Below, in pieces: positions 2,812 through 36,600 of a DNA stretch of 51,988 nt. The translations under genes were made by a program, and so were the position numbers. Position 1 is the stretch's first letter. Each line of letters begins with the position of its first letter. This DNA comes from Ruditapes philippinarum (taxonomy: Eukaryota): contig NW_026859662.1 in the NCBI RefSeq assembly GCF_026571515.1, forward strand, positions 62,001-113,988. Direction: 5' to 3'. The notes under the pieces are model-generated. The model worked only from the letters and a program-made list of their open reading frames with translations. It searched no databases and was not told where the DNA came from.

Positions 2812-3102
2812 TGAAATAACATTTTTGTGATATATAGACTTAAGCTCTAAATATATGCATTATCATATTTTTGTCACTTTCATTTGTTGATTTTCTATCA
2901 TATGAAATAAATAAATGTATAATTTTGATTATGATGATCTTTTAGACTTTTACTTATCCCATTGACTTAACACCATCATAAACGTATACTAACGCATAGC
3001 TGTGCTTCATATGATTCTACATAACACCGAATTATTGCAAAACATACTAAGAAGAAATAGTATGCAAAAATGACTATGCATATCATGAACGTATGCCCTG
3101 AT

Positions 3103-3568
3103 TACGGAATACCGTTAAGGCCATCGTGGTTATACTTTATAATCCAGAGGGCGACAATGCGACAGCACGATAGTGTGATGACGACAGTACCACAGTGCGA
3201 TGACCACAATGTGATGACGTCAATGCGATAGTGCATGGCGACAGTGCGATAACGCAATGACGACAGTAAAATAATGCGACAGTGCGATAACGCGATGACG
3301 ACACTGCGAAAACGCGATGGCGACAGTGCGATAATGCGATGGAGACAACGCGATAGTACTATCGCACTATCGTATTGTCGCTATCGCATTGTCGCCAGCG
3401 CACTATTGCATCGTTGCATTATCGTACTGTCGTCATCGCGTTATCGCACTGTCGCCATCAAACTTTGGCATTGTCGTCATCGCACTGTTTACTGTCGTCA
3501 TCGCATTATCACATTGTCGCCCTCTGGATTATAATGCATAGCCACGATGGCCCTTACAGTATTCCGTA
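3103..3568. mobile_element. Non-autonomous foldback DNA transposon (MITE), IS3EU-like
   Basis: Begins TACGGAATACCGTTAAGGCCATCGTGG..ATAATCCAGAGGGCGACAATG and ends with its near-exact reverse complement (...TATTCCGTA). Exact 6-bp TSD CCTGAT at 3097-3102 and 3569-3574. Interior is GCGATGACGACAGT-type repeats mirrored about ~3357. TAY..RTA ends with a 6-bp TSD fit the IS3EU superfamily. Confidence 0.9.
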
Positions 3569-8825: not shown

Positions 8826-9936
8826 TATCAATTATATCAAAACTCATATATGTTACATTTTAGTTACATTGACACAGTACAGGCCGAGGTAACATGCAAT
8901 GGCTTGCACTGTTTATTTCTTTTGGTAAGCAATATGAATCGGCAAATTTCCTCTTATCGATATAAAGTACCGGTAAATGAACCTCAGCAATAAAGCTACA
9001 GTCACATAACGATTGATTGATTGACTCATTTTTATGGCGTGACTCTGATAGACAATTTCGACGATTTTGCACAAAAGAATTCCCATAGACCTACAACATT
9101 AATGCCTTATCCTTAATTGTTAGAATATGTAAAATATAAATTCGTTAAATTATTTCTTTCATCAAATGCAATATCTTAAATACCGGTATGTTCCTAATAT
9201 TTTGTGTTGTAAAGACCTCACTAAGTTCGACCATGTGTATTCATACATTATATAACCAAATGGGTAAATGAGAAACAATTGAGTAGAATTCAAACCAGTT
9301 GGCATTTTCAGAACAGCTTTATAATCATATTGCATTACGAGAGAGTCTGTTTTGGTATAACAAATTTAATGTCAAGTGACAGATTTATTACTTTCTATTA
9401 TGCTGACAACGAGCAGACTTTAACGTTCGAATCTTGCCTGGCTAAATTACACACTATATAAGAAACTTAGAATAGTAAGGCAGCTTTGAGTAATTGCTTA
9501 GATATAGTTCCTAGGACGTTATTGTATTGCTCGATAGTTAAGACATACTGCAAGTGGTGTAGATAGTCTTGGTTCGATACATTTTAAGAAATCTTTAAAT
9601 ATTTCATTTCCAATCGATATAATACCTTTAAATTATACATTGCATTTTATTTTTAGAGAGGACTATATAACTTTACCATAAACTATTCAAAATAATCGGT
9701 CCATGAAACTTTTCTGAAATTCAATAGTGCTAAATCTAAATCATATTGATATAATAACCTAATTAAATAAGCATTTTCGATGGAACAAACTCTTGTCACT
9801 AATATTGATTTAATTTGAAATCACAAGATAATAATTAACTTATTATTGTGAAATGTAAATTGTAGAAATTGGCAAAGAGATTTAAGATTTCAGGATTACA
9901 TTATTTGATCAAAAAAAGAAGATAAAATAGAACAAG

Positions 9937-12900
9937 ATGACACAGGCTATGATGCGGGTGATTGAGAAGAAAGGGATTGTAAAGGTTCCTGAGGAATATG
10001 TTCAAAGAGAAAAATTTACGACAAGTTCTCAGCTAGAGGACGATGATGACCTTGTAGCCACTTGTTTAGCCAAGCTCCAAGATGGTATAAAAGTCACTCC
10101 ATTAGAAGCGACAGATGCTCTTAAGCAGTACAGAAAGTTTCAAAATGAAATGGGACGACTACAAACGCTTATCAGCAGACCCTCGGTAATATAGTTTCAT
10201 TTTATATAAATAATGTATTTTTCGACAACAAAGCGTATGTTGACTTGTTTATTTATAACCCATACTTTTTAATGGGAACAAACTTTAAAATGTTAACTGA
10301 GGAACCTTTTTACTTCTTGTTGTTTTGTTGTGTGATTTTTTTTCTTTAATTTTCACATGGACGTCTTCAAAATGCTTGTTAAATACAACAGTACTGTGAT
10401 AAAAGTTATGCAGTTTTGTATCATGCGTCTTTGTTCATTAACATCTGCAAAAGCACGAGGACGCATTTAAAACCCGAGACCGCAGGACGATAGCTTCTGC
10501 AGATGTAAATGTACGAACATGGTGCATATGTGTGGTTCTTGCATGCAAGTACAAATCGGTTATTCCGAGTTTCTGCATCACTTGCATTTCGTATAAAGAA
10601 ACCATTGCTTTTTTTGATATTTTCCATGATTGTGCGCCGTCAGTTGACAATTATGTTTTGGTAATAACTTTACCGGGCCACCATTGCATTAAGCTGTCCT
10701 TAAATTGCCTTGACTTACACAGTCATATTGAAAACGTGCCGCAACGGCGCGAGGTCTATGTTTTTATGTAAGAATCTTATTTAATGGTCTAAATAAGTAT
10801 TTGTAGCATATAGAAAATGAAAACTGTTTGTTTTTTTCAATATACAGAGATATCCGAAGATGACATCTAGCCTTTACATGCAAGAAAAAAGTTTCAAAGA
10901 TAGAACAAAGAAAATAATAGAAGCAAAGGAGAAAGAGATCGTTTCAATGAAACAAAAGGTGACGGAAATGTCTCTCAGGTATTGCTGTCTCATAATTGAT
11001 TTGTCTAATCTTTATCAAGTCACAGAATATGTATTCAAATACGGGGTAATCTGATTTTAATGAGTAGAAACTCAGATAGCCAAGCGGATTTATGTATGTT
11101 CTTTCTCTTCTATCCTTACAGAACGCTAAAACCTGTTGCCAATCTCCATGCATATTAAATTGATACTAGACTTCGCTATCTTTATTCTTGTCTTTTTATA
11201 TCTCGTATCATGAAGTCAGTTTAGTAAGCGCCCCTGGAACCAACATTGAATGCATGTTTTTACTTCCAACGGACAGTCTGTAACTGATATAATGGTATCT
11301 TATACCGCACTCTACAGTACTGTTTATACATTGAAAAGGTCTCCCAGCTATAAAACAAAGAATTTAATTGCATCGAGTACTGACTTCTTTTGCTTTGGAA
11401 AAAAAACCATTGATTTGTTTCAGTGTCTGTAAAAGTTTCAGGTATGGTAAGTTATCGTTTATTAGACATTTTATATTTTACTTTTATATCTTATGCAACA
11501 CAATGGAAATTTACATATCTTGCCTGTTATTGTCAAGTAAACATTATATCTAATGTTCCTATCTATGTAAAGCAGGGTTATCCAATGGTATGTATTTTTT
11601 TTTATTAATTCTCACACATGATGATATCCTCTTCAGATTAAGTGCTATACTCGGTACTCAGGTTGTTGAACCAGATGAGAAGAAAAGTGATCTTACAGAT
11701 AGCATTAAGCCAGTGGATATAGCAGAAAACTACAGAGCAATTTATGATAATGAATACCAAACAGCGTATGAAGAACTTGCAATAGCCCTTGATGAAGCAA
11801 AGGTTTTAGTATATCTTGGCAAAGTAACATGGGTATGTCTAAGGTTTTGTTAATTGTTCGCAAATAAAATGTTATATTATAAATTATTAAATGCATTGTC
11901 AAGTAATAATTTATAGTTTGTCCTATGTTTTTAAAATAGAGTTTGGAAATTTATTTTTATTAAGGATATTCATATAAACTTGAAAGACGATATTGTATCT
12001 TTGCAAAGTAGCATGGGCAGTAACATGGGTATGTTAAAAGTATTGATAGCAACAAATAAGCATTGCATTTACAATAATAATTAATTGTTTGTCTTAAAAC
12101 TTTAAAGAAGAATTTGGTAGAACTTGGATATTTAATCTAGGAAATTCACCAAAACTTCAAGTACGATATCGTACCTTTTTAATTTTTGTGGTCGCATCAA
12201 CACAATTTAGGTCATATAGCTTCACTCTTTACTGGCGGAGAAAGACCTCAGGTGCCCATATGTACATTATTTCAGACACAAACGGGCACCTGAATAGAAC
12301 CACCGCCGCTCCGTAACTTCATTCAATTTCATTTGTGTATGGAAAAGTGAAATGTATTTAGCTAACATGTTTCACACTATCATAAGGCTGCCTATGAATT
12401 CGGAAAAGATATGGCAAAACAGCAACTTGAGGATCTGATGAGAAAGGAAATGGAGATTCTTAAGATAATGTCAAAGCCAAGCTATGAGGAGAAAGAACAA
12501 CGAAAACCAATAGTAAACACATTACGATTTAATATTCTATTTCGTAACGAACACTTGCAAAAGCAAAACTTTGTTACAACTTAACATAACATCTTTATCG
12601 CAATATATTACAACATCTAAATTGATTTTGAACATGTGTCCATTTATTGATACAAAATTCTTTTACTTTATGGTTTCAATTAAAACAAAATGCGTAAATA
12701 CATAAAATATTTACATTCCTCAGGTAGCTGATGGTATTTCAGCCAGAAAGTTTGAGAGGGATGAAACATTACAACTTTTGAAAGACTATCGAAGGTGTCT
12801 AGCTCGGACGTCGGTCCCTGGTGTAAAACAGGTAAATACTAACAGTTACTAGAGCACTACGTACGACGAATTGCTGTTCTCAAGTAGCTTGTTGAACTGA

Positions 12901-14000
12901 CTCTTCTTTTATCAAGCCTTAAATGTTTCATAGATCTTACAATAATTTTTTGTTTTAACAGTTCTTTATTACAGGAAAAAGAGAGAATTTTATTATAATA
13001 AATATTCATAGATAAAAAAACCCAAAGCAACATAGCCGTCATATATTTCTTTGTAATATCTATTTTTTTAAAGATATTTATAACTCTAATGACACGATCC
13101 CCTCCTCAGAAAGGAGGAACATTGACAATTGGTGTGAAGAAGTATATCCTGAAGGTTGTAGAGCAAACGTACTTAATGTGTATACAGGTAAAAATATCAG
13201 TTTTACAGCAATATGATTAACAATTTCAATAAAAAGTCAGAGTAAGAAATTATTATCATAAGATGTTCAAGAAGGCAAATACCTTTTTCTTACTTCAATG
13301 ATTTTTCCATAACTTTTAGTTATTATCATATTAGTTATACGTAAGATTATTTCAAGGTTATATGGCGCTACATAAACAGTTGTTTGCATATATAATTCAT
13401 TAAATTGCGAATAAAAACAACGTTTATATACAACCATATAACCTCTCGGGGTTCTTTATCATAAATTTCTAATACAACAAACTTCTTTTTTAGAGAAAAT
13501 GAGAGATTTTATCGTATATTGACAGTAGTCGTATATATAAAACTATATAAATATCACGCTTGTCCACTTAAAAGCGACGTTACAAACGTGCAGTATTATA
13601 ATTATCCATATAAAGTACGTTTTCAACGACTAATGCAAGAAAGAGACGATATCATTATGTCTCAGTTTCAAATTACTATACATCGTTTAGTTAGTGAATA
13701 AGAAGTTAAAGTGTTTTATTCAATTTTTTTTATGAAAAATAATAGTAACTTCGGTTTGAGTTTTTTCTTTTTTTTGACAGGAGCCTCCAATGTGCCTAGG
13801 TAAGATTTGGAGATATTCTGGACACGGAGAAATACAAGCCCTACTCGGGGGAAGGTAGTACAATTGTTGGGACTATCTGGCCAGTAGTCCTTCGGCACAA
13901 AGGAGGCCCAGTCATGAGTAGGGGTATAGTGGATGTGATGTACGGTCAAATAGCCGAAACAAAATCAGTTACTATACAGAAATACAAACATGATAAATAA
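9937..14000 (+). CDS. Mieap-domain protein, array gene 3; extra intron and frameshift in last exon (possible pseudogene, null allele or assembly error)
   Basis: join(9937-10185,10848-10978,11637-11832,12387-12512,12724-12831,13074-13187,13781-14000). Motifs YRAIYDNEYQTAYEEL, LLKDYRR, YLMCIQ|EPPMCL. The homologous tail GDILDTEKYKPYSGEG..IWPVVLRHKGGPVMSRGIV lies in the +1 frame from 13809; the unshifted frame stops at TAG 13856-13858. Confidence 0.8.
10405..10770. mobile_element. Probable non-autonomous DNA transposon remnant (Crypton-like) in gene 3 intron 1
   Basis: Imperfect hairpin ATGCGTCTTTGTTCATTAACATCTGC...GCAGATGTAAATGTACGAACATGGTGCAT and locally raised GC; superfamily guessed from the hairpin style. 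Confidence 0.4.
11811..12175 (+). repeat. Tandem duplication (~185 bp x2) spanning the gene 3 exon 3 donor
   Basis: TATCTTGGCAAAGTAACATGGGTATGT...AAACTTGAAAGACGATATTGTA is repeated as TATCTTTGCAAAGTAGCATGGGCAGTAACATGGGTATGT...AAACTTCAAGTACGATATCGTA. Confidence 0.75.
12176..12318 (-). mobile_element. Truncated SINE, 3' part (probably molluscan V-SINE/RUDI-like)
   Basis: ACACAATTTAGGTCATATAGC...AAGACCTCAGGTGCCC...CATTATTTCA..GGGCACCTGAATAGAACCACCG resembles a common clam SINE as recalled; contains an internal inverted repeat CAGGTGCCC/GGGCACCTG. Confidence 0.55.
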
Positions 14001-16608
14001 AAATGAATATAAATCGAATATTATTCATTATGAATTTTCAAAGATGAAAACATGAATTGGATGTTTATGCGGAATGATTGGTCATAGGTTCATAATGCGT
14101 GTACACTGCTAAAATCATATGTCACTCGGGCCTGATAAATTTCTTAAAACAATTTTCTCAATATAGAAACCGACTGTTCGTCTGGATTTTATTGTCGTTG
14201 AACTTTTTTGTTTTTCATTCTCACATATATTATAATATGTATAAAGAAATATTAAAAGTGAGAAATCTTTTATAAAGCTGAGTGTATGTGAATGTGCATC
14301 CATGTTTTGTTTAAGAATATTATTTATTCATAGCTAACATTCTTTTGTAGAACTTGTGTGTATGTCTTTGTTAAGATATGTCCAGTTTTGATTTGCATTT
14401 GTTTCACTGGTTAAGATTTTTTTTTATAAAACACAATTATATTATGCACCAAATAATTGTGAAATATAAACAAAACTACTAGATGTTGTTATATATGCGT
14501 TCAAATTCGTACAATCCTAATTATTTTTATATGTACACACTTCGCCGCTTTAGTGATATTATTGGTAAAACATTTGCAATGCCAGGAGAAATACCAATAA
14601 ATCAACAGTTGTTTACCAGTCTGAGATATGTTTATAAACTGACCGAAATTAGCATATTGTAAATGAAATCTATGCTAAAAACATGCCCTATTTAGCTTTA
14701 TTTTTACATCCTAAATAATCTAGTTTCCACATCATACAAAGCGAATATCGTATATATGGTATTTTTTATCGTAGTTTTATTTTGTACTATTGTTCTTAAT
14801 CTTGTTATATCATCATGAAAACAAAGACATGCACTATTAATAATATACTTTACTTAATTTATTTGGAAGATACTCGCATTGTTCATTCATGTTACAAGAT
14901 TCGTACAAGATAGACACGACCAGGGTTATTAAATATAATAAAATGCCTGAAATATTAAGATAGTGTGACCGTCAGCAAACTAATTGATAGGTTTCTGGAC
15001 AACAATCAAGTTATCAACCATCAATCTTCTGATGAAACAAATGTTCATGACCGTGTCATACCTAATAATTTTATCAAATTCTAAAATATAAAATTATAGT
15101 TTTTATATTCGCTTTTAGTTTCGCATATACAGTTAAATACATGTATACATGTTAATGTTTTAACAAGACAAGGGATATAACCTTCTCTAACCAGGGTAAT
15201 TGAAATTTGACCCTTTGTAATTCCTTTTCAATATGTCTTTTATTTTCAAAATAGTTTACAATTGTTATTGTTTTTCAAACAGATTTTTAACTTCGATATA
15301 TAGAGGAACTTTTAAAATACTTAATCAACAATGACAATTTGAATGATAGCGTTGTAGTTAAACAATGTCAAATACTACAATCGATATACACGGGTCATAA
15401 GATTCTATTCATTTTTACAAAGCGTAAAACTAAAGGCATTGAAAATCATCAATGCTTTAAACAACTGCCAATCTATTTAGTGCGTGCATTAACACTAAAT
15501 TAAGGTATGTTTATGGGAATATATTTATTTGTAGCGAAAGTTGTATCGAATGGAAATTGACATATTATTGAGTTGCCAATTTTGGATACACAGTTTTGAG
15601 TCATTTGCTCATATTTTTTTCACTTCTTCATAAAACAAGTTGAGGACACAAGGTGAGTATTTAAAAATATTCATTTGCTTTAGTTATCTAATAACAACTT
15701 CTTTCAGAAAAACATTGAAAATATTCATATTTTTATTTAACTCAAATTATAGTTACGGAAAGTACATTTGTAAACAATACTTTAAAAAGCTTAACTTGAA
15801 ATAAAATAACATTAATAAAGAATATGAAATGTCTGTAATGCATTTAATAATTGAACATTTTTTTATGTTATTTGATTTAAACTCATATAAGTCGTTTGTT
15901 TATTTATTTGTTTGATATGCAAATATTGCTATAGATTCAGACTGTAGCTATAAACTCGCAACACTACAGCAAATATGTTTTTAATAAGACAATAAACATG
16001 AATTTTAAGTTAAATTAAGATACCTAGTTGTACATTGAATGTTTGACTGGTATATGGATATTAAGCCAAATTGTCAAATACATTTTATTACAATTTGATA
16101 TCTTTCCAAACATATATTATGAATGTACACGTATCAATGCAATTTAAACTCTAATGGGACATCACCGTAACAATGTAACAAATACCACCAACTGAAAAAT
16201 ATGTATACTTTATAAAACATGTATTTTTGTCTTATTTTTAAATATCATGATGTGAAATTTTATTTCCCCCTTTTTTTAAAATAATTTTTAAAGTTTTTTA
16301 TCTATTATAGAGAAGAACAATTTTGGGTATAGTTTTGAACACTAAGCGTTAATTAATTAAATGATGATTATCACATATTACAAATTCGCTTCAATGCAAT
16401 CGTACATTTCTTTAACTTTGTCACAATTATTTGCTTGTTTTACTTGTATCATATTTGTCTACCCTTTCTAAAATATAAAGATAAAGATGTTAACAATTAT
16501 AAATTGAATACTATATTAATCTGCCAAACATTCTACATAAAGAAGATTTTTTTGTCTCCCAACTGTTATCAATTATTCAATAATTTCCGATTTTTAGACG
16601 TAGCCAAA

Positions 16609-19600
16609 ATGCCCTACATACCGCCGGTAACGAGTCCCAACATTGAGAAGTTGATGACGTATTTGAACAAGTCTCAGTGGCATAATGTGTCGGCACATTT
16701 CGCTAGCTATGTACGTAAAGAATATGAAAGTTTCATGGAGAAGCTAGATGATGATGAAGAGGTCTTCCGTAATCTTAGGCTTATGATTGAATATTCAGAA
16801 ATGGGCAGGTTTAGTGAGGCGAAGAATCTTATTGATCGTAGCTTTAACAAAGACACTCAAACATATGATTTCGGCACACTCGCCTAAGTCTTAACCAGAG
16901 CTGAATCATCGATAAGGTATTAATTTTACCTAAACAAGCGGTTTATTAACACATTATCAATATGAGGGTGGGCGTTGAAATTTTTTATCATAGGAATTAT
17001 TATAGTAGCACAAATCAGCTGCGGGTGCTGCGTAAACATTAACAAAGGCTTTATGTAAGAGGAGTTTGCTGTTATGACTCGTACATTTTCCCATTGATTG
17101 ATAAAAAATAGAAATGATTTCACATTAATTTGCAGCAAGCCCGGTGTAAATGTAAAGATGTACTGTAAACCATCATGATTCTCAAATAAGTATCAACGTT
17201 ACAAACGGGCAGAGTTATAATTATTTTGAAGAAAAAAAATAATGAAGCGATTATAGAAGGTCAATGGTCTGATACATGACTGTTTATTCAAATCATTGAC
17301 ATTTGAATTACTGAACGTTTGTAATGTTTATAAAGTTAATATACAAGGCTGCTGTCCATTATTTTCTTCAAATGAAAAAAAACCAAAATGCTGTATTAAA
17401 GAATTAGTTTTAAAAATTTTGGCATGGTATGTGGTAGAGTATAACCGGCTGCAAGCCTATATGATTCCTGCCGCTATTTATACTTGACCATATAAGCTGT
17501 CAAACGTCTTTTAAACTAATGATATGTGAAGTAATGTACGAGGTGATAACATATATGTCTTTTTGGAAGTATGATGTTCTTTAGTTTACATATATACATA
17601 CACTTTTTGTCGTGTCACTTACATTCACTCACAAATTGTTTCAGTTCTAAAGAAAATAAAAAAAGAATTTTCATTCCTACCTACCTATTTCTATGAAATG
17701 GAGACATCCCTGTCACATTCCAGTAACTTTGATGCCATATTTATACGAGCCTTTTTTCTTTAATTTAACTCATAATCAAAATGAATGACATTAATGTTGT
17801 GTTCTGTAATTCATGTCAGTTAAATAATATCACACACTGTTATTGAGACAGATTTCCCCAAGACGACCGCCGCATAGACCAGTTGAACATCAAGATCATT
17901 ATAACCGACGTGATGCATATACCCCTGATAGACGAGATCTAGCTACTCCACCAAAACGTTCTACAAACCCACGTGAAGATCATACTCGTGGCAACCCAGG
18001 ATATGAAACACCTAAAAGACATGAGGTAATTTGAAATTTGTCCGGGGCCAGCAAAATCAATTCTTAACTAGTCTGTCAATTCATTAGCTTAAATGTCTTC
18101 AAATTACTTTCACGATATGTGCAGATTCTAATATCTCTTGGTATATTTGATATCAGGAAGTCACCCATCTTGAATACGGAAATCACGTGACTCTTAATTC
18201 AGTGTCTTACCGTGTTTTTTTTTCCTCAACACGAAAGCTTCATATTCGCCGTATGTCCTATGCTGAGTAGTTATAGCACACACAGGCACAAATGAACATT
18301 GTTAAATATTGTTTGTTGCACACAAGAAAGATTCAATCATAACCTAGATATAGCTGAGATATTTCTTAGATATTTATCACATACCTTCTTGTAATATGTA
18401 ACGGACGTGTTTTAATGTTACATTTCTTTTTTATATCTTGAGACAAATTACAGAGTAGAAATTCGGTTTGAATGATAAAGATATGAATGATGTATTTTAA
18501 TATAGGAAATACACGACAGACATCCAAGAACACCTCAATATCAACATGATCAAGGTCCTCAATATGATATACATAGGGTGAGTCATAAATAAGGTCACTT
18601 GATAAGTTATTTTATTAATAAGATAAATTACGCGTACCTTTTCATAATTTTCATTCCGTATTTGTATTTTTCTTTCGTTTTAGAATAGCGTAACTTTTAT
18701 GCATCATTTTACATTATAAAGTAAAAGCACTATACCGAATTTGTGTTCATTCATTCATAATTTTTCAGGTCATATTTCTTTCACTCGAATCGGCCCTTAA
18801 TTTGCCTTGTCCGTTTTCATATCTTCAACATTTTGTGAAGCACATACTGGCCCGTTTTATTATAAGCTGTCCAAGTGTATTCTCATTAAAATGTAAGTAT
18901 CTTTTAATAGAAAAATACTTTTAAATACTAAATTTAAATTTTAAATGTTTTAAATTTTTTATCTAAGATATTGATATCTTTCTTACCATAGCAAAATTAT
19001 GAAAATCTCCGACTAAAGACACCTGAGCAACCAATGAAATACGACTCGACGGGAAATGATTCACATGACGTACATGGCAGCCGACCCAACAGTCATCGTG
19101 CAGACAGGCAAACACCACCTGTGTCTGGAGTTCTCACTAGCGCATCCCAGATGACGTCATCAAAGGCACTCTGGGGTCGTGATTTTGGGGACAAACCAAG
19201 CGAAAAAGTTGGGTCCAGTACATACAGGCAGGATTTCCCAACGTATGCTTTAGACCATCATGAACGTAAAGACAAGGAAAGATATAGAGAAAACTTCGGT
19301 TCGTTAGCTGAAAGAGATATTTATCGCCGAGATAGCGATGATGGTTCAATCCAGGGAGATCAGAGGTAGGTATTACGTCAGTATTTACAGATATAATTGA
19401 TTTTCAAAAACACTTTTTTCAAATGTTGTTTCCATTTCTTCCTAACGCTTTTAATCTTGATATATTAATTTTCTATTGTTCGAAATCACATAACTTGCGA
19501 TATATCAATGAAAATCATTTTCAACACAGAAAAATTTCATCACATTGTTTCGTTTACGGATGCAAAATGTGATTTTTTAAAAAAAATGTTTCATGACGTT

Positions 19601-22577
19601 TGATTTTTCTTAAGAAGATCGGCACAACATGCACGCCATATTGAAACACCAGATCACGATAACAGACCTGTTGAATTAGGTAAACGGTTCAGAGAACTAT
19701 ACACTCATGAATGGACAGATGCCTATGATGAAATATGTAAGGACTTTGGTTCCGAGAAAACCGTGCGACATCTTCTTTGGATTGTAACCGTACGTTTCAG
19801 TCTAATATTCATATGTAATAACTTATCTTATATTTGATATAATATAGTCTTATATTTGATTTAAAAAAAGTTTGTAAAATGAATTCAATTTATAATGTTC
19901 GTAAATTTAAATATTTACAAAGTTAAATAGTTTTAATATTTTATATATGTGACAAACATTGTAAATCGTTCTTAATTACCAAAAATAAGTTTTTGTTATT
20001 AAGATAATAATAAAAAAACAAGATAAATTTATACACTCTCAATCGTTTATAGATATAATAAATATCATTTTAAATCAAGCTATATTGAATATCATAAACA
20101 CGTTCAATATTTTTATACTTAGATTTATTTGTTTTTTTATTATCAATTATTAATCACATGTACAAAGCAAATTTTAATATTAACATTATTTTCGCCAATG
20201 TCGAAACATATTACATATAATATCAAACCTGGCGGTATTTGCAGGAATGCTCATTGATAGCAAATGATGTCGCTGATCATCAGCTCAGAATTTTAGAGAA
20301 AAAAGCATTTGGTGTAATGACAACCCCCGGTGATGTCGAAGTAATTCTTGCACTGCATGATTTCAAGTCCCTTCACTGATTGGAATATTATCCATTACCC
20401 ACACACCTTTTAAGATAGATGATTTGAATAGCAACTATATACTCTGTAAAACAGAACTTTCAATTTCCCTATTTCTTTAAATTTCTTGTGTTCTTTTCTG
20501 ATTGGTAACCTGGCGAATTATCCGTTGACAATTCGCTATTTTTTAAACAATTCTAGCGACTTTCTATTGAAATTTCGGTCCATAAGTTAATTGCCTTTTG
20601 ATAATAAGAACACATGATACCAAAAGGGTACATGTCAAATAAATTATGTATTGTAGCAAAAAGATAATAAAACATACAAATTGGATAATAACTTCAATTT
20701 TTTTAATGTGTGGGTGATGATACTGTTCTATTCAATGAATATACTTTGTAAAATCCTAGGTTTATAATATATTAGATGGCATAGTGAAATGTGCGTTTTG
20801 TTACAGGAAGCATGGTTGATATCCGGAGATGTTGCCGATAAACAGCTTAAAGACCTTGAAAAAACTGCAATACGTTTAATGAAAACTCCAAATAAAGAAA
20901 TCTTAGTGACGACCCCTACACCTACACCAACTCCTTCTTCATCTTCCTATCCTACACCTACGCCTGATAATGTAATACTTGAAATAAGCTTAATCAGAAC
21001 CGCTTGTTAGTATCACGTCGATTGTGTTGTTTCAATAAATTCCTTATGTTTCATGTAGGCAAGCTTGTTAGTAACACTTCGTTCATGTTGACTCAAGAAG
21101 TTCCAGGCAAACCAGGTGCCAAACTGATAATGAACTTTCTCTAATTATCAAAATGGTAGAAAACTGATACTTGATTCAACATGACTAGCCATATTAATTT
21201 GAAAGATCTCGGTAAATGTCTTTCAAGGAAGTAATAAATGAATAAATGCGACATGGTATTTTGAATCCATTTTGATTCTGTAAGAAGCTGTTTATCGAGG
21301 TTGCATCACCGCTATCTTATTTATTCCGTTTAACACATTACTAACATAATCATATCCACCTTATAACACAAGGTAATTTTCATGAAATTAATTCATTTTT
21401 AATACAATTATACTTACAATTACTTCTTGTGATTACTGCAAATATAAGTAGATAATGCTTAATCATTTTTATTTTCAAAATTTTTATCGTGCATAGCTGA
21501 AAAACAACAGATTTTTCTTCTTTTCCATTTTAGAAAGACTTCGTAGTAAAAACATGTCAAATATTTTAGTAGCAATTATTCAATGGCAATATCATTCAGT
21601 ATTTAGCTTTTATCTTGTTTTTATTATAATTGTAACTTTTCTTTTTGTATAAAATAATTTCATTTGTATTTAATAATCTTACAAAGCTTTCCTTGATGAA
21701 GTAAAATATGTGCTGTATTAAGTATTTTTGTTTAGTATATAAATCCTAAAAATTACCATTAAAGTAGTCTACACATCGAATACTAAATACTCAATTTACT
21801 GAGTCTGTTTAGATCATAATTATTTTTATAATTTTTAATTTATAAAGCATGGTAGTTTTATTCCCCGTCAACTTGGAGACACTCTCCCAGCTTCAAGGAC
21901 GCTTCTACTGAAGTACAGGAAGCAAACAGCTGTGTTGTCAATACCGTATGTTAAAGAGGTAAAAATGTTAGACAAAATTGATAAAAAATATACATTTTTT
22001 TTTAAATTTTACCTTATGTCTGAAAATAATGTCGTCTTTTAATTGAAGTATTTAGAAATGGGAACACCAATGTCAGTTTAAGCTATCTATATACTAGCAT
22101 TGGTCTATGAAACAATATTTGTCAAACTTAATTCTTCTAGTGAATTACATGCAGGTTAATTATTGTTTTAATGACTTATATACTTCAAATGAAGAGATTT
22201 AACAAAATATATGAATATTTTTATACTGTTTTTGAAAGTTTATATGAGAATATGTATTGTTATTTTAGGAATGTCGAGAAAAGATCAGTAAAACATTAAT
22301 TGAATCATCTGGATTTCCCAAGTCCTATCTCAGCGATGCATCACGTTTAACTGCTTACATTAACAAATGTGCTGAACTGACGTGGTTAATGTCTGTCCAG
22401 GATCCTCCTATTGTCCTAGAATACATCACCAAGGAAACCGAGGGAGCTCGATTCAACGCTGAACATTACCATGTGTACACGAAACCTGGCAACACTTACG
22501 ACTATGGAGTCTGGCCAATGCTTAGACAGGGCAAGAAAGGACCAATTATAGCCAAAGGAATAGCTCAAGGGATATAA
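16609..22577 (+). CDS. Mieap-domain protein, array gene 4, long disordered linker; first coding exon has in-frame stop
   Basis: Putative exon 1 16609-~16916 (MPYIPP...; TAA at 16885), then 17852-18025, 18506-18577, 18992-19365, 19615-19789 (RPVELGKRFRELYTHEWTDAYDEI), 20245-20340 and/or 20807-20971, 21848-21958 (LLLKYRK), 22269-22577 (YINKCAELTWLMSVQDPP...YHVYTKPG...VWPML...KGIAQGI*). The frame is intact from 17852 onward; the exon 1-2 junction is unresolved. Confidence 0.78.
20245..20340 (+). CDS. Gene 4 duplicated exon A (candidate mutually exclusive exon)
   Basis: ttgcag|GAA...GAA|gtaatt, 96 nt, phase 0/0; ECSLIANDVADHQLRILEKKAFGVMTTPGDVE. Confidence 0.75.
20807..20971 (+). CDS. Gene 4 duplicated exon B (candidate mutually exclusive exon) with T/P/S tail
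   Basis: ttacag|GAA...AAT|gtaata, 165 nt, phase 0/0; EAWLISGDVADKQLKDLEKTAIRLMKTPNKEILVTTPTPTPTPSSSSYPTPTPDN. Confidence 0.75.
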
Positions 22578-24491
22578 CTCGTTCATACTGATAGAATCAT
22601 AGTAGTAATTACTATCTAAATCCATACGGAATTATTGTCTCGTGGACGGTTTACTCTCTGAATTTAAAGATGCACTAGATTAATTTTGCAGCCTGAAAAC
22701 AGTGTATGTTTTCTATTTTAACACTTTAATAATTTTCAGCCAAGTAAAGCAGGAAGCATTATGGGAGAAAACAGTTATTTTTTCATACAAGTGTCTGACT
22801 TTCTTTTGACATGTGCATGTTTGATTGTTTGCAATAGGCCTTTTAGAACTTTAGTAGTTTATACTTAGTGTTCCTATCATTTCGATAAATTTGGAATAAG
22901 AGAAAATTTGAATGTGTTTTATTTTTTTTTATCAAGATACGTTTACCTATTTAATGTAAAAAAGAACTATGTCATTTGACATTCAACAAAAGATAACTGC
23001 ACATTGCCTGTGAATGATAGAAGTAGGTATGTGAACATTATAAAATTATAATTGTTTTTCTATCTTTATTACTATATTATATTTACATTGTACAGTATGC
23101 TATTCTTAATCTGTTATTGTGATACACAAATACCTATATATTTGAAAGTCTGTGATATTTATTTTGTAAATGACTGTGTGAATGAAATAAAACATGAAAA
23201 AACATTTCCATTTTATCGATAGTGTCTTTGCTTTTTTTTGTTATTGATCTTTGTTCGTCTAGGAATTAAGAGGAATAGCGACCCTTATATAAAAATTTAT
23301 AGACATCCAATATGTTATTAGATATTTTTCAATATATTTTCATTGCGTAGTACGTTATTTAGTACACAATTTTTGTCCAATGGCAAATATAGTAAAATAA
23401 GAAATGTTGAATAAAACGGTCTAATTTAAAGAGATACTTTATAGAAATATTCGTTAAGAGATACTGAAAAGAAATATGCGGATGGAAGATTTTATGTAAC
23501 ATACTCCCGGATAAATATATGATAATGTCATAGGAAACAATAACATGACATTCAAATGGAGGGATTTACTCGATTCAATAATAATAAATATCTTAACTGA
23601 ACTATTTGTTCACAATATGTAACCCAATGTAAACATCTTGGTAATCATTAACATTTCTGCCCAATCTTGGGCGTTTTCCTGCAGTCTGCATTTTCTCATC
23701 TGTTTTGGGACTTATTTTTGAATCTCAGTTTTTGAATTGACATCGTGTAGATCGCTGACTTTTAGTCTAACACATGATATCTAAATGTCTCTTGAGCTTA
23801 TGTAGCAGGTGTTGGGGAGAGGGGTTTAAATGGCAGGATGGGTGAACAAGAGAAACAAATGACTCGTACGGTTAACAGCTACAGATAATGATTCAAAACT
23901 TGTACATAATTTAAAAAAATTAATGCCTTTATATTTAGTGTCTTTACAAACAATTAACCTTTCCATTTGTTTCACGTATGCCTATTTCACGTATAGTTTA
24001 TTACACTGAACGAATTTTTATATATATACTATAATGTAAGTTGATCACTAGATTGTCAAACATACAAGTATAAATCATCTCCCACAGGCTGAAGAAGCAA
24101 CAATTCTGATGCCACGTCATGGATTTTAATAAAAAAAAATACCCTCTACATTGGGTTAACTTCACAAAATTAAACAGCCATTTTATTTCATGATCACGTG
24201 ATTATACATTCAATCCGAATTATACACGCGTTATTTCACTCGTCTATTGACAAAGAACAAAGGAAAGAAATCGACTAATCAATATCACATGGTCTGTTAA
24301 TTATATTTTGATTGAACAAAATGGTTGAAAAATGACAATACATTGTACAAGCAATGTCGCTGTTTATTCTGAAATTACTGTTAAATATATTGGACTAGAT
24401 CTATCTCATGTTTTAGTTGCTTTAATTATGTGTTAAGAACATTTGATTTAAACATTTGGAAGACTTTGGTAGACAAAGAAGAGAAGTAAAC

Positions 24492-27400
24492 ATGACTTCA
24501 AAATCAAGTATTCACTTAATGATATTTTATATGCAAAGCAGGGAAATGTTTAAATTAACACCTCAGCTCTGCAGGCTAGCCAAAACTGAGTATGAGGAAA
24601 CAAGAGCAAAGCTTCCCGATGACGTCAGAGGTGACGTCAGTTTTGACAAAGTGTTGCATCTCATTGAACACGTGGAAAAATCGGAATTTGCTAAAGCAAT
24701 TGAACTTTTAGGGGAGGCATACAAAGAACATGAAGAGATGATGAGTTATTTTCCAAAGAAGAGCAAAGAAAAGCATGCGAAGGTAAACTTATCTTAATTT
24801 GAATGATTCGGTGTCACATTTATTAACATAACTATGTCATGTAAGAGACTTGTTTGATCCTTATATCAAAACATTCCAGCACTGATTCATGGGTGTAAGC
24901 ATATGTTTGGGAGTTATAATGTTTAATAATTTTCATATCTTTGTAGAAAATTGAAGAAGCGGGATCACCGTCTATATTGGAAGAAAAATGGGAACAACCC
25001 GTGCGACCCGATGATATCCCTACGCCTCCAGCTGTAAAGCACACACCCAATGAAGACGATAGCAGAAATTGGAATAATAAATCACCAACTGTATCAAAAG
25101 ATTATGACACAATGAACATTAATGGCAAAGGCACCGGAGATGAAGACAATAATAGGTAAACTGAAAACATATTGATATTTGTAATGAATAACTTGATTAA
25201 AGACACATCATCTATAACGCTTTCATTGTTAAAAAATGTGAACATACAAAATTTACTGTATGCATACTCGTATGTACCATTTCCAAAAGGTGACAACTAT
25301 AAGGTCTCTAATTTCAAAACTTTAATACTAGTGAACTGGATAAAGATATCTGTCAGTAATATAGATGTTCCGACAAGTTTTAAAACAGAAGAAAAACACA
25401 CCGTAAAACTTAAAAGAAATAACAATTTGAATTAAACATACAGCCATTTAAGTGACGTAATGACGCGAGAAAGAGATAAAAATTAGTATTTTATTGCGCT
25501 TGTTAAAAATGAATAAAGAAAAAGCCCTATAAACAAACTGACAATAATATTAATAAATTGGAATAAGGTAATTGCAACAATGATTTTCCTTTTCACTTTT
25601 ATTATCTTAGTATTAAAAAAGTAAACAACAATTTGAATATATTGCTTCTTTTTATCAAGTCATAGGATGACGTATCTCACAACATTTAGAAAGCGTAATG
25701 GCAAGGCTGATTATGAGACAGTGTATGTATCAAATAGTCCTGCAGTGCTTGCTGACAAGTTCACAGAGATATACAAGAACGAATGGAAATCAGCTTATAA
25801 TGAACTCGAAGTTGTTCTCGGTAACAAACAGACTATACGACATATGTTGTGGATTATTGCAGTATGTATAAATGTTCTATCACACGTTTGCATACCATAC
25901 TTGTATATCATGCATTTGAATTAAAGGTTTTAAGCACATTTTTTTTTAATTTTGTAAAACCTTAAAGTTAAAGGTGCATAATATATTAAAAAAAGTAAAG
26001 TAATTTTCAAAATGTGACAACGTTGAATATTAAGATAAGAAAAATACAAAAGTAAATGACGATAGCTCAAAAATATTTTATTTGATTAATTGTCACTTGC
26101 ATTTTTATACCTTAAACGCATTATTAAGCTGTAAATACAATGAATTGATTGATAATTGTTGTATAATTGTCATATACATTATAGATATGTGCAAATCTTT
26201 TCGCCAATGTTGGCCGTGCGAGACGCACAGAAACAAATTAATCCTGTATTATCTAAATTTAAGACACACATACCTTCTGTAAAAAAAGCACAAATGAGGA
26301 TAACTTCCTATTTACTAGAATAACTTCTTTATATCTTTTATTCAGAAATCTTCCATTATATGTGCAAACTTAGCAACTCAACAATTATCAGATGTGGAAA
26401 ACTCAGTTGTTGGTATTATGGTGTCACGAGATCCGTTAAACAAGGTATTGATGTTTGCCGAATAATTCAATTAAATCATCTTACCTGTAATTTTCAATGT
26501 GTTGTTTTTGAGTGTATGCCAACACAACATTTCGTCATACATTAAACTTCTCTTGCTCTATGTTACCACCTTTCATGAATTTTAAGCGCAAAAATCCGCT
26601 TGTTTTCGGCATTTATCAAACTTTATTTAGAACTTACGGTTTCCACAACTGTCCTGGGAAAACAGGCAAAATTATCATTTCTTCGTTTTGAATTTTAAAT
26701 CATTATTCTGTAAATGTCCTCAAAATGAATCCACTAGGCAGTCACAGGTACAAAACTGTTCTTCTTTTAAAGAATAAACTGGTGGTTTCGTAACTTGACC
26801 CACGCGGGTCAGGTAAGAGAGTTATAATATAGCGTTCTCAATAGTTGTCACAGATAACTCTAGAAACGGTAAAGAACATGTCAACTGAATGACTTACACT
26901 TGTTTCAATCATTGTAGTTTTCAGGGTTTGTTCGAGTTACATGACATGTTTTAAAACTAATCGGTGTTCTGTCGGCTTCTAAATTTTGTTTAACATGTAT
27001 AGATATATTTAAGCCCCAAACGCAAAATATACAGAATTTATACAGAAATTCATGCTGGGATTTTAAAAAATGTCATTTTATTGTGATTTGAGTACATACG
27101 ATCATTTTAATATTTTTGTCAATAATTTGCCTGAGTATCACAGTTTAACAGATTTTGGCTGTGTAATAAGCTGTTTTTATAAAATTTGAAGTAAATTATG
27201 TTTAAAAACTAAGGCATGAATCATTGCATGTAATACCATATCAAATAAAAAATCAATTATCTTAACAGAAGTCATTGATTGATGAAACATTAGCAAATAG
27301 AAACGAAAACGCTGTAGCAAAAGCAAGAAGTATGCTTGTAGATTATAGAAGAGAGCTTTCAAAACTGTCTATCCCTATGTTACAAAAGGTAAAGTCTATC

Positions 27401-28138
27401 TTGATCTGTCAGCAAATAGTATGTAAATAATAAAATGCTAACATAAACTGATTACTTACTGCCATTTATTTCAAAAGTATACAATTCGTAATTACCATTT
27501 TATACAGGTGCAGTAAATACAGTTAATATTGACAACAATATTACGTTACATGGTGTTTGTCGACACTTCAAATTATCCTGCGTTTAGCTCTCTATCTTGG
27601 ATTTTTTTGTACATCACCTATTGTTGTTTTTTCTCCTTTGACTGAGAGGAGTTAAAAAAAAATAGCCAAGCAGATCCTTTTCCTGAAAGATGTATTGCAA
27701 TTTGCCAATGTATTAAGTTTTATACTTAACATTATGATTAAATGGAGCACGCTCTAATATTGCTGTTCTTCATAAACAGACTACAAGTAAACACATTTTC
27801 AAAATTAAAAGCACGAGTTGTGTCTTGACTTGCAGGAGATAAGACGTGCGATCGCATCTGAACTTGGAACATCTCTGCCAAGAAGATTTACAGGGATCGG
27901 TAACCATTTTGTTGACTATGCCGAGAAGTGTATTGAAGTTATATGGTTAATGTATGTACACGACCCACCTATGCATCTGGAATGGTTGACCAGGGAGCAA
28001 GAGGGGACGTCATTTAAAACTGATTTATACATGTCCTATACGACACCTGGAACTTTATACGATTATTGTGTCTGGCCAGTTGTACGTCTTCATAGGAATG
28101 GCCCTATTTTGTGCAAAGGAGTAGCACAAGGGAAATAA
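24492..28138 (+). CDS. Mieap-domain protein, array gene 5 (~407 aa)
   Basis: join(24492-24782,24947-25155,25660(or 25666)-25861,26346-26444,27269-27388,27836-28138), phases 0,2,0,0,0, open frame. Motifs FTEIYKNEWKSAYNEL, MLVDYRR, YAEKCIEVIWLMYVHDPPM, YMSYTTPG, VWPVVRLHRNGPILCKGVAQGK*. Confidence 0.88.
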
Positions 28139-33092: not shown

Positions 33093-33678
33093 ATTATATG
33101 ATTATGAAATGACATATCAAGTGAATCGAAATATGAAAGATATTAAAAATACAGAAGTCCAATTGTGCAATTTACAAAAACTTTAGTAAATTTAAGGTGC
33201 TAAAGAAATTTGACAACCTCGAAGTAGAGGACAAGGTTAAACATATCCTTGGACAGGCATCCAGCTTTTCAGGTTGCATATCAGAATTATATCATTTATT
33301 GTTATAAAAATGCAAGTCCATTTTGTTTGTGTTGCGGTTTTAAGACAGCTTTTATACAATCTACACGGTTAAAGGCCGGGTTTTTTAATTGATTATATTG
33401 ATATAGAAAGTGCACAAGCAAAGCATATAAAGTGTTACACTGTATAAAGTTAACTTAATTCAAACGTGTCTACGTTTATAAATGAATAATCGTTACTGAT
33501 AACCGTCTCAGAGCAAGTTAAACGTTTCATAAACTGGTCTCTTATATATCTTGTTGGAAAAGTTATTTTCATTGTACGAGTTTACGACCTTATCTTTAAA
33601 ACGCAACAGGTCACACAGGATTCAATATAGTTTGCGGTTATTTATATAAACCAGGAAGTTTATTGTATGTTTTGAATC

Positions 33679-36600
33679 ATGGACACAGAATGTGCAATCG
33701 AACGTGTTTTCGCTACCATAGAGATGAAAAAAGTAGCAAGTCTTGATGATGTTTGCATTAACAACGCAGAAGCAGAGGTAACCTTATTAAGAAATGAGAA
33801 ACTAAACTCTAACGCAGAGAAAACTTTTAAGATCGTCGATGAGATTGTAAAGAAAGTTTCTCAACGTGAGTATAATTTAGCCAAGGAAAAATACACCAAA
33901 GAGATACATTTAAAAAGAGACTTTGCTAAGCTGCTCAAGAAATATTTAGTAAAGGTAAGCATACATTTTACCCAAGTCTTGTGGAATAACACGTTTTTGA
34001 TTAAAAGAAAACAACTGTACGATTATTTACTGAAGGTATTTAAGGAGATATTTTTATAAGTTAAATGAATAAATAATGCTGTCTTTTTCAGCTTGGTAGA
34101 ACAGCATTTAAAACTAGATATTCATTTATTAAAAGTTATATATCTTTAACAGAAATACAAAGACTCAAATTTAACAAAAGTTAAAGAAAACAAAATAATA
34201 TGATATATTTGTGTGTGCGTGCGTGCGCGCGCGTTCGTTGGTGCGTGCGTGTGTGTGTGCGTGTGTATGTGTGTGTGAATTAGTACATGTATAGTAAAAA
34301 TTATTTAACTCCGTACTGAATAATTCAAGGAAGTAGATACGACCTCTTATTTCCGTGAAAAATATAAATAGATTCTTATATTGGTATATTTTACACACCT
34401 GACCTATTATGTACACATCTGTATTAAAGATTTAAGTTACTATACTAACATACTAAGCACGTTTTAAGTAAAATACAGGAGAACATAGATTATATATGAA
34501 TGTATACGGTTAGATGTCTGAAAAAAGCAGATGATTTTAATTCATCTTTTGGATTTGATTTATATGAATATTTCTTAGATCGATTTTACTAGAGGGCGAA
34601 TTATATGAGATGGACCGAATTACTTTAACGATAAGCTCCACACGCTTAGCTGATTATGGAGAACATAAAATTAGAAATTCATCGGCTACTAGTCTGATCC
34701 TTGGGCGAGACGAAGTTACTATAATTATGGCAACTGTTCTCGGACATTGTTTCTATGGTCATTTGCCTCTCACCTCTGATTCAGTTATCATGTCGAATTA
34801 GTTAGTACTCGGTAAATACTGGTTAGTTATCCAGGTTGAACAAAAATGTGTTAAAATCGGCTTCACAACCAGAAAAACACAGAAAAGAACAAAAATGTAA
34901 CACGGTAAATACGTAAACATAGCGTTTTACATAGTTCAACACCATGATTCTGTTGTAATATAAAATACTTTTAAAAACGAACTAATAGATACGACATTGA
35001 CTGGCTGACTAAATTAGAAAAAACGTGTATGTTATATGAATCAATAGAGAGGTATCGCACATAAAATTAATAATGCAGCATAGAGGGAATTGCCGGATTT
35101 TAGAAAGATATGTATTTTATACATACATGCTTTATGGTGTTAAAACTGGAGACAATATTCATTGTATCATACCCATTTCTAAATGAATCGCACATTAATT
35201 GTGTTTATTATGTGTAAAGATAATTTCAAATACTACTATCATATGCAGCTTTCGGTTATTTCATTACTCAATGATAGTTCCTAATGGTTTCATCTTTTTC
35301 TTCGAGAATAACAACAAAGGCGGTGCCGCTGAACATCAGTTACGTGAGGAACCAGAGCCCGATTATGATCAACCACCAAACAATAATGAAAGAAGTTTAC
35401 AAAGTGATGGCCAACAAAGTAGCAGAAATATTCAGGATCATGCAAAAATAAACGCAGCAGCAGCTGAAGAATATGATAGACAGAGAGGGTAAATTTTGCA
35501 ATAGTACTCTTAAAAAATTGCTTTAGACATGATGAACACACCAAATAGCTTTTCTAACTGTTAATGCCATCATATTCGAACCGACTTGACTAGACACGAC
35601 CGTAACTATGTGCCAATAATGAAGTCAAGTATATGAAAATGAAAAGAAATCACATAATGAAAAAATGATCGTGTTTTCGGAATTCCTTGTTAATTTAAAG
35701 GAATATATAAAATTTATAACCAGATATGTTAAACTTGTTAAAATGAGTCGCGGATTATTTTTGCCCATCTCCAATTTTAAGATGGGGTTTGTCCATTTAC
35801 CCCAATGCTTAGCTTGTTAAAATATGCAAATCAACTGGATTCACAATTAAACATACGCATTTTTCTTTTGAAGAGTTGCCTGTCGAGTTCAATATGTAAT
35901 GATAGTGAGCGCATTATTTCTTCATCATACCATATAAAAGAGTATGCAATATCCTCGAGAATTATTTTGCTAAAATTCTACCTTTACAATTTTAGACAGA
36001 AAGCTAGCCAGGCGATGAGGCACAACAACCCGGATATAGCGGATCTAAGTGATCATAACAGACCAACCAAAATTGCTGAACGCTACACACAATTCTATGA
36101 CAACGAATGGACAACAGCTTTTGAAATATTAAGTGAGAAAAAGAAAACTGAAGAAAAGAAAATAACACAACTTCTTTTGGAAATAATTGAAGTAAGAAAG
36201 CGACAGTAGTACATGTAGTTATTCTGTTTCACCATATTCTTTATGTGTAGAATAATTTGAATTGTAATTTTTCTCTGTAACTGTATCATAAAGAAAGGCA
36301 AAGAATCCTATTGTAATATGATGTTTCCTTTCTTATCAATTTGCGCTGATCTGCCTTTTGTTTGATAAGATTCTGAATAAGTTATGTAAATATTTAATTT
36401 TATTATCCTTATTTTTATTTTAATTTGCAATGCACTGTGATTTTTTTTGTCATTATATCAACTGTTTTATTTTCTTGAAAACAGTACATAAGTGAAAATT
36501 AAATGATAACAAAACAAAGTTTTATTAAGACATGGTTATAATCTATTCAAATTCATCGATTAATTTGAAGCTAGAAATGAAATGATGTATTTAGATATAT

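What the first reader, a model, noticed from the sequence alone, without database searches (positions are those of the whole stretch)
20245..20971. Tandemly duplicated exon in gene 4: candidate mutually exclusive splicing inside the Mieap domain
Seen: two homologous phase-0/0 exons 466 bp apart, both open and with intact splice sites, and 16 of their first 28 residues identical (ECSLIANDVADHQLRILEKKAFGVMTTP vs EAWLISGDVADKQLKDLEKTAIRLMKTP). I found only one such exon in each other paralogue. Exon B adds a TTPTPTPTPSSSSYPTPTP tail. Inference: including both would duplicate a core helix, so they are probably alternatives, adding isoform diversity on top of gene duplication. The TP/S tail could be a phosphorylation or O-GlcNAc switch.
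Basis: partly seen in the sequence, partly recalled or inferred. Interest (0 to 1): 0.72.

Follow-up and report, generated by a model that had tools for sequence, protein, structure and literature searches.

The report
Ancient either-or exon in clam gene
A clam gene of the "mitochondria-eating protein" domain family carries two old copies of one exon, kept in four clam lineages, and it likely uses one or the other, which would swap part of the surface where two copies of the protein are predicted to pair.

Summary
Observation confirmed. Exons A (20245-20340) and B (20807-20971) are homologous (16/28 residues), phase 0/0, open and AG/GT. Both are conserved, each as its own type, in Mercenaria, Dreissena and Mya. 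Five of six named models hold exactly one: Mercenaria RefSeq X1 has B and X2 has A. The one model with both is a fused, truncated Mya prediction. No RNA junction could be read for this clam, so either-or use is inferred from relatives. The exon encodes the last 22 residues of a long MIEAP-domain helix. In a homodimer model of the Mercenaria A form (0.65, best control 0.00) it gives 15 of 32 interface residues, and the best-resolved contact joins two positions fixed differently in A and B. A short intron, reading frame and splice-site class cannot enforce exclusivity. An intronic element (21282-21321) antisense to both exons is a candidate RNA switch, but covariation is untested. The TP/S tail is not conserved, so a phospho or O-GlcNAc switch is unlikely. 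Verdict: a new member of a known kind, with testable leads.

The parts
20245..20340 (+). Alternative exon A, 32 aa, phase 0/0; donor lacks both -1G and +5G
   Evidence: A-type in Mercenaria X2 (XP_045204350.2), Dreissena KAH3833564.1 and KAH3833563.1, Mya WAQ97965.1
20807..20971 (+). Alternative exon B, 55 aa, phase 0/0; donor lacks both -1G and +5G
   Evidence: B-type in Mercenaria X1 (XP_045204345.2/XP_045204348.2), Dreissena XP_052283530.1, Mya WAQ97965.1
20909..20965 (+). Lineage-specific Thr-Pro/Ser tail of exon B, in the loop after the helix; not conserved
   Evidence: matching loop in Mercenaria models has pLDDT about 50-58
19615..19789 (+). Upstream constitutive exon (start of the MIEAP domain); tandem AAG/AAG acceptor
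21848..21958 (+). Downstream constitutive exon; its orthologue gives 16 of the 17 other predicted interface residues
22269..22577 (+). Last coding exon, MIEAP beta domain (Pfam PF16026, 44.9 bits vs cut-off 27)
21282..21321 (+). Candidate docking element D, antisense to the homologous 5' halves of both exons (13-nt perfect stem with B)
   Evidence: one match in G000
19761..19808 (+). Upstream exon end and donor, predicted to pair with B's acceptor and 5' end (20770-20838)
   Evidence: rank 1 of 179 donor-acceptor pairs, -42.6 vs mean -17.1 kcal/mol
20380..20731 (+). Predicted stem (20380-20403 with 20708-20731) that loops out most of the A-B intron
   Evidence: (z -1.8, weak)
16609..19365 (+). 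Coding exons 1-4 of gene 4 (16609-16916, 17852-18025, 18506-18577, 18992-19365): N-terminal helical bundle and disordered linker; the end of exon 1 likely carries assembly noise

Best explanation
Exons A and B are an old tandem duplicate, kept in four clam lineages, that is likely spliced either-or, so the gene would make two proteins differing in one MIEAP-domain helix that is predicted to form half of the protein's self-pairing surface. SHOWN: homology, phase, open frames, type-specific conservation, and one-exon-only annotated isoforms in relatives. PREDICTED: the exon covers the last 22 of 35 residues of helix 358-392 plus a loop. In the homodimer model it crosses its mate, with the best-resolved contacts at 390/394. 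Those two positions are K/Q/H + V in all four A exons and T/A + L in all four B exons. INFERRED (about 0.35): the switch retunes dimer stability or A-A versus B-B preference, and also swaps a family-conserved aromatic site (W in B, S/A in A). INFERRED (about 0.35): exon choice is set by RNA pairing. Intronic element D would mask B by default so that A is used; when B is opened, D is freed and can partly pair with A. The TP/S tail is likely a neutral loop expansion.
For: Five of six named models hold exactly one exon; the unnamed P0007 also holds one, A-like. Over 28 residues, window A matches foreign A exons at 23/23/18 and foreign B exons at 16/17/15; window B matches foreign B at 22/21/19 and foreign A at 16/18/16. 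Five columns are fixed differently in 4 of 4 A and 4 of 4 B exons. B exons group at 88/92. A then B, in the same order, in Mya, beside the gene-5 orthologue. Helix position from AF2, pLDDT 89-98. Homodimer of Mercenaria A-form residues 320-541: ipSAE 0.65, best of 3 controls 0.00, runs agree in at least 83% of contacts, pLDDT 86, alignment not used. That mark was reached by 21 of 30 solved microbial homodimers and 0 of 23 monomers; on eukaryotes by 17 of 29 pairs (animals 7 of 16) and 0 of 30 single chains, but by only 1 of 7 pairs without an older solved relative. Position 3 is Y/F in 87 of 124 other family domains. D pairs with the B core at -32.9 and the A core at -27.8 kcal/mol; the weaker-of-two score is reached by 0 of 48 shuffles and 0 of 25 real tiles. 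Both alternative donors lack -1G and +5G, unlike the other six donors of the gene.
Against: No spliced read or contig from this species was seen, so junction use here is inferred. Annotated models are predictions; that RefSeq isoforms rest on RNA-seq is recalled, not checked. One of six named models (Mya WAQ97965.1) carries A and B in tandem, although it also fuses gene 3 to gene 4 and stops just after B. A exons are not a supported clade (13% of bootstrap trees) and the B clade falls below the 95 star. Diagnostic columns are not enriched in the interface (3 of 15 vs 2 of 14, p=1.0). Only the A form of a relative was folded as a dimer, and the pass may come from likeness to solved dimers: the domain weakly resembles GrpE. 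In the whole pre-mRNA ensemble D pairs with B (22.6 bp) and not with A (0 bp). With B held open D:A reaches only 9.9 bp and A is no less accessible (0.44 vs 0.46). One of 25 real tiles matches the B energy and one comes within 2 kcal of the weaker-of-two score. A and B are 63% alike, so pairing with both is not two independent facts.
Confidence: 0.8

Rival explanations
1. A and B are two independent cassette exons. Single inclusion dominates, but A+B and skip-both forms are also made and matter.
For: All four outcomes stay in frame without stops, so NMD would not remove them. The 466-nt intron gives no steric block. One Mya model has both exons.
Against: Skipping both removes 22 residues of a pLDDT 89-98 helix, and including both duplicates it. 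No named complete model has zero or two exons.
Confidence: 0.09
2. In this clam one exon, most likely B with its repetitive tail, is a decaying leftover and only the other is used.
For: B has an unconserved repeat expansion and departs from the other B exons at a few interface positions, for example R at position 23 and N at 29. No RNA was seen here.
Against: B keeps 22/28 and 21/28 identity to the Mercenaria and Dreissena B exons, all five type-specific residues, an open frame and AG/GT sites.
Confidence: 0.06
3. Both exons are always included, so the protein has a duplicated helix.
For: The A+B join is in frame; the Mya GenBank model has both.
Against: Mercenaria has two RefSeq isoforms with one exon each, and Dreissena has models of each kind. 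The Mya model is a fusion that ends right after B.
Confidence: 0.03
4. The function of B lies in its TP/S tail, acting as a phosphorylation or O-GlcNAc switch.
For: A TP/S-rich stretch in a flexible loop is the sort of place such marks fall (general knowledge); the Mercenaria counterpart also holds a few S/T.
Against: The tail is absent from the Dreissena and Mya B exons (31-32 aa) and unlike in Mercenaria (41 aa), while the helix differences are fixed in all four lineages.
Confidence: 0.07

Closest known systems
Tandem duplicated exon substitutions / mutually exclusive homologous exons (Martinez-Gomez et al. 2022, PMC9741552; abstract and outline read)
   Same: Adjacent homologous same-phase exons, ancient, with core residues kept and mostly conservative changes.
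   Different: Here the host is a bivalve gene in a family already expanded to at least 150 last-exon matches. Tissue specificity is unknown.
Competing RNA structure MXEs: human ATE1 7a/7b (PMC7797038, passages read), Drosophila serpent exon 4 (PMC4691838, abstract and one section read), duplication model (PMC6071210, abstract read)
   Same: One element complementary to homologous sites at both exons, plus a predicted upstream pairing that loops out the first exon, as in serpent.
   Different: The predicted selectors lie inside the coding exons, not in introns. The upstream pairing covers the splice sites themselves. Nothing is shown by conservation or mutation.
Mieap/SPATA18 and the bivalve MIEAP expansion (PMC10845071 and PMC8382680, passages read)
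   Same: Pfam PF16026 C-terminal domain preceded by a long disordered region; part of the bivalve expansion (OG24: 807 genes, 53 per bivalve on average in that paper's table).
   Different: One of very many paralogues, with its own N-terminal helical bundle. Orthology to SPATA18, mitochondrial location and p53 control were not tested. The passages read mention neither protein dimers nor isoforms of Mieap.
GrpE nucleotide exchange factor fold
   Same: Long helices plus a small beta domain. Eight of the top ten Foldseek rows are GrpE chains; VIA Z 6.6 (rmsd 5.7, 104 aligned) and 6.2 (rmsd 4.0, 100 aligned) on the MIEAP domain.
   Different: All Foldseek E-values are 0.19 or worse, and Z is within the range of common arrangements. 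No evidence of Hsp70 binding.

Membership tests
Mutually exclusive tandem-duplicated exons | Two homologous adjacent exons between the same flanking exons | tested here: met
   16/28 aa, 53/84 nt, 0 of 5000 shuffles
Mutually exclusive tandem-duplicated exons | Same phase, intact splice sites, each alone gives an open protein | tested here: met
Mutually exclusive tandem-duplicated exons | Both copies conserved across species as distinct types | tested here: met
   four lineages, five fixed differences; B clade 88/92, A unresolved
Mutually exclusive tandem-duplicated exons | Annotated isoforms hold exactly one copy | tested here: met
   5 of 6 named models; the exception is a fused, truncated Mya model
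Mutually exclusive tandem-duplicated exons | Junction reads in this species show A-only and B-only forms and almost no A+B or skip-both | tested here: inconclusive
   one search gave no spliced reads; remains open
Mutually exclusive tandem-duplicated exons | Tissue- or stage-specific use | not testable with these tools
   no usable RNA data obtained
MXE enforced by steric hindrance, frame/NMD or U2/U12 incompatibility | Very short intron between exons, frameshift on double inclusion, or mixed spliceosome sites | tested here: not met
   466-nt intron, all forms in frame, all GT-AG with ordinary donors; branch point not mapped
MXE enforced by competing RNA pairing | One docking site complementary to a selector at each exon, beyond chance | tested here: inconclusive
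   0 of 48 shuffles and 0 of 25 tiles, but D:A is 0 bp in the global ensemble and 9.9 bp with B open
MXE enforced by competing RNA pairing | Conservation and compensatory changes in orthologous introns | not testable with these tools
   no orthologous intron DNA; the one metagenome locus ends before this region
MXE enforced by competing RNA pairing | Disruptive and compensatory mutations change and restore exon choice | not testable with these tools
   needs a minigene
MIEAP domain family (PF16026) | Pfam score above the curated cut-off, with the exon inside the domain | tested here: met
   44.9 bits (last exon) and 59.6 bits (P0001 329-538) vs 27; Atlas top hits MIEAP at 0.93
MIEAP domain family (PF16026) | Orthology to SPATA18, mitochondrial location, cardiolipin or mitophagy role | not tested
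   no vertebrate tree built; function needs experiments
GrpE-like fold | Significant structural match over the domain | tested here: inconclusive
   Foldseek E 0.19-1.4, VIA Z 6.2-6.6 on a 541-residue model

The most novel reading that the evidence does not exclude
An intracellular self-recognition switch. An antisense intron element masks one of two coding exons and so recodes the two-fold contact (390/394) of a GrpE-like MIEAP dimer. A and B isoforms then sort into separate homodimers, a two-state, Dscam-like code kept since the Venerida-Myida split. This would also imply that dimer specificity is what diversifies across the hundreds of bivalve MIEAP paralogues.
Probability: 0.12. Interest if true: 0.78.

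Novelty: new member of a known kind. Interest (0 to 1): 0.5.

Why it matters
Bivalve MIEAP genes are among the most expanded families in the class (PMC8382680, passages), yet what the domain does at the molecular level is open. A natural swap of one helix, kept for hundreds of millions of years, points to the part of the domain under selection. It gives a clean A-versus-B pair to test self-pairing. It is also a mollusc candidate for RNA-structure-driven exon choice with selectors inside exons. The splicing pattern itself is a familiar kind and is already implicit in RefSeq isoforms of a relative.

Tried and rejected
RNA evidence: no RNA holder was listed. The four raw runs laid were uninformative. 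X21 and X22 (72 and 74 reads) show intronic depth, no listed joints and GATC loose ends, so they look like proximity-ligation DNA; X23 and X24 gave 1 and 2 reads. Junction use in this species stays open.

Orthologous intron DNA: the metagenome scan gave one locus that ends about 1.1 kb after exon 1. A third protein search added no new orthologue.

A scan for double exon hits within family proteins missed its positive control P0008, so its blank is discarded.

The first all-against-all duplex scan was unconvincing as a regional test: the best duplex was -25.3, reached by 0/60 and 3/60 shuffles but by 7 of 22 real tiles. One search used windows picked after seeing the result and was replaced. 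The A-B intron fold is weak (z -1.8; 6 of 100 shuffles). A serpent-type downstream pairing from A's donor to 21050-21082 (-22.1) gets 0-0.9 bp in the ensemble. The six paralogue single exons show no duplex beyond shuffles, so there is no sign of an ancestral stem.

An internal in-phase GT at 20906 would cut off B's tail. I judged it less likely, because the Mercenaria B exon runs past that point and the site fits the donor consensus worse.

Pseudogene reading: the stop at 16885 was rejected as likely assembly noise.

Literature: six locus or protein ids gave 0 papers; Mieap with GrpE gave 1 unrelated listing; searches listed nothing on this exon pair. Subscription papers and supplements were not searched. 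Earlier findings: none.

Full report
SETTING. The window lies at G000:C8149:62001-113988 in a 1.41-Gb genome. It holds seven same-strand genes that end in a MIEAP-type exon. Gene 4's last exon matches Pfam MIEAP at 44.9 bits against a cut-off of 27 and has 150 scored matches genome-wide out of 183 candidates. The next best after itself is gene 5 at 44%, so gene 4 looks single-copy. The nearest named proteins are from Mercenaria mercenaria (84% over the last exon) and Dreissena polymorpha (81%), so the source is likely a clam.

OBSERVATION. A (20245-20340, 96 nt) and B (20807-20971, 165 nt) are bounded by AG/GT, phase 0/0 and open, with a 466-nt intron between them. They share 16 of 28 residues and 53 of 84 nt; 0 of 5000 shuffles reach the score. 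A search of the own genome with B finds only B and A. Each of the six other genes shows one such exon, by a weak HMM scan. With exons 17852-18025, 18506-18577, 18992-19365, 19615-19789, 21848-21958 and 22269-22577, the A, B, A+B and skip-both forms all read without a stop.

BOTH EXONS ARE OLD AND ANNOTATED SEPARATELY. Mercenaria LOC123557131 has RefSeq isoform X1 with a B-type segment and X2 with an A-type segment, otherwise aligned alike. Dreissena has a RefSeq model with B and two GenBank models with A. Mya MAR_022338 has A then B in tandem, but that model fuses the gene-3 and gene-4 orthologues and stops four residues after B; the gene-5 orthologue is the next locus tag. So 5 of 6 named models have exactly one exon and 1 of 6 has both. 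The unnamed P0007 has one, A-like. Across species A-A identity is 16-23 of 28, B-B 19-22 and A-B 15-19. Five columns are fixed differently: 3 (S/A vs W), 7, 12 (H/R vs K), 20 (K/Q/H vs T/A) and 24 (V vs L). In a 29-column tree the B exons group at 88/92, while A is unresolved. The duplication therefore likely predates the Venerida-Myida split. One mitogenome study dates that split to 447 Ma and calibrates Veneridae at about 336-339 Ma (PMC10449738, passages); placing Dreissena in Myida is recalled. I obtained no spliced reads from this species, so either-or use here is inferred from relatives.

WHAT THE EXON ENCODES. AlphaFold2 models of the Mercenaria A and B forms (95-row alignments; mean pLDDT 72 and 71) show an N-terminal helical bundle, a long disordered linker and a confident MIEAP domain. 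The exon starts at residue 371, inside helix 358-392, and ends in a low-confidence loop. Skipping both exons would cut that helix and including both would duplicate it. B's tail maps to the loop and is not conserved: B is 55 aa here, 41 in Mercenaria, 31 in Dreissena and 32 in Mya. Position 3 is Y or F in 87 of 124 other family domains; B has W, while A and the gene-5 orthologue have S/A.

PREDICTED DIMER. Two copies of the Mercenaria A-form domain (320-541) scored ipSAE 0.65 against a best control of 0.00. The runs agree in at least 83% of contacts, pLDDT is 86, and my alignment was not used. The mark was reached by 21 of 30 solved microbial homodimers and 0 of 23 monomers. On eukaryotes it was reached by 17 of 29 pairs (animals 7 of 16), by only 1 of 7 without an older solved relative, and by 0 of 30 single chains. 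Fifteen of the 32 interface residues come from the alternative exon. The lowest-error pairs include 394-390', 391-391', 394-383' and 390-390'. Residues 390 and 394 are diagnostic columns 20 and 24, and the window's A and B differ at 7 of the 15 interface positions. Diagnostic columns are not enriched in the interface (p=1.0). The model supports pairing and does not show it. The domain weakly resembles GrpE (Foldseek E 0.19 or worse; VIA Z 6.6, rmsd 5.7 and Z 6.2, rmsd 4.0), a dimer by recalled knowledge, so the pass may come from likeness. B-B and A-B were not folded.

HOW EXCLUSIVITY COULD BE ENFORCED. A short intron, a frameshift with NMD and mixed spliceosomes are all excluded; the branch point was not mapped. 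Both alternative donors lack -1G and +5G, unlike the gene's six other donors. A GC-richer island, D (21282-21321), is antisense to the same 5' half of both exons. With whole 84-nt cores and all three introns, D pairs at -32.9 (B) and -27.8 (A) kcal/mol. The weaker-of-two score is reached by 0 of 48 block shuffles (mean -19.9, sd 1.6) and 0 of 25 real tiles (best -25.9); the B score by 0 of 48 and 1 of 25. D has one match in G000, though that search skips common words. The upstream donor pairs with B's acceptor better than any of 179 donor-acceptor pairs (-42.6; mean -17.1, sd 5.2), although B's acceptor takes 5 of the top 6 places. Against the simple model: in the folded 1.66-kb pre-mRNA, D pairs only with B, and holding B open yields 9.9 bp of D:A without hiding A. 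The most likely reading is that B is masked by default and A used, with B released under regulation. This resembles ATE1, where competing pairings hinder one acceptor at a time (PMC7797038, passages), and serpent, where an upstream pairing favours the second exon (PMC4691838, abstract and section 5). It fits the duplication model of PMC6071210 (abstract). No covariation test was possible.

COMPARISON AND NOVELTY. The pair works like, and meets the sequence and annotation tests of, a tandem duplicated exon substitution (PMC9741552, abstract and outline). Junction counts and tissue pattern remain open. The gene is a MIEAP-domain family member of the bivalve expansion (PMC8382680, passages). Human Mieap functions (PMC10845071, passages; PMC11036304, passages) cannot be transferred without tests. 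Searches found no paper on these loci; subscription papers and supplements were not seen.

CAUTION ON THE ASSEMBLY. Exon 1 has a stop at 16885 and about 20 extra bases over its last 83 nt, relative to a metagenome protein that is identical over the first 76 residues. This looks like unpolished long-read noise, so single bases elsewhere in the window, including B's tail, want confirming.

VERDICT. Real, and a new member of a known kind. Mutually exclusive use 0.8; dimer retuning about 0.35; RNA switch about 0.35; tail as switch 0.07. Interest 0.5.

Noticed in passing
window 16834-16916: The end of gene-4 exon 1 has about 20 extra bases and a TAA at 16885 relative to protein P0013, which is identical over the first 76 residues; likely long-read insertion noise that makes the gene look broken.
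   Followed up: yes
P0001 320-541 (window 19615-22577): The MIEAP domain model gives GrpE as top structural neighbour in Foldseek and as the only domain-level match among the 50 VIA rows, both weak; a search for Mieap with GrpE listed one unrelated paper.
   Followed up: partly
window genes 3-5 (about 9200-28135): The order gene 3, gene 4, gene 5 is kept in Mya (MAR_022338 fuses 3 and 4; MAR_022339 is gene 5).
   Followed up: partly
G000, many contigs: At least 150 matches to the last MIEAP exon, often in tandem clusters (C2644, C12669, C9370, C10372 and others); some carry stops.
   Followed up: no
window 18506-18577: Dreissena models P0002 and P0005 differ by a 30-residue block in the disordered linker around this exon; possibly a second, cassette-type alternative exon.
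   Followed up: no
window 19612-19617: Tandem AAG-AAG acceptor that would add or drop one Arg.
   Followed up: no
window 21002-21043 and 21063-21104: 42-nt direct repeat (79% identical) just after exon B's donor, in GC-richer islands.
   Followed up: no
window about 3100-3700, 39600-40000, 40400-41600, 42660-42800: Repetitive, strongly self-pairing stretches (duplexes of -29 to -62 kcal/mol) between or within genes.
   Followed up: no
window 33400-34056: A 127-codon open frame (33676-34056) and weak HMM hits between genes 5 and 6, not assigned to a gene.
   Followed up: no
runs X21, X22: Labelled RNA-Seq but behave like proximity-ligation DNA libraries (GATC loose ends, intronic depth, no splicing).
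   Followed up: no
P0001 320-541: The Atlas lists an unnamed, mostly Mucoromycota cluster at 0.90 with 167 shared features: a possible fungal MIEAP-like family, lead only.
   Followed up: no
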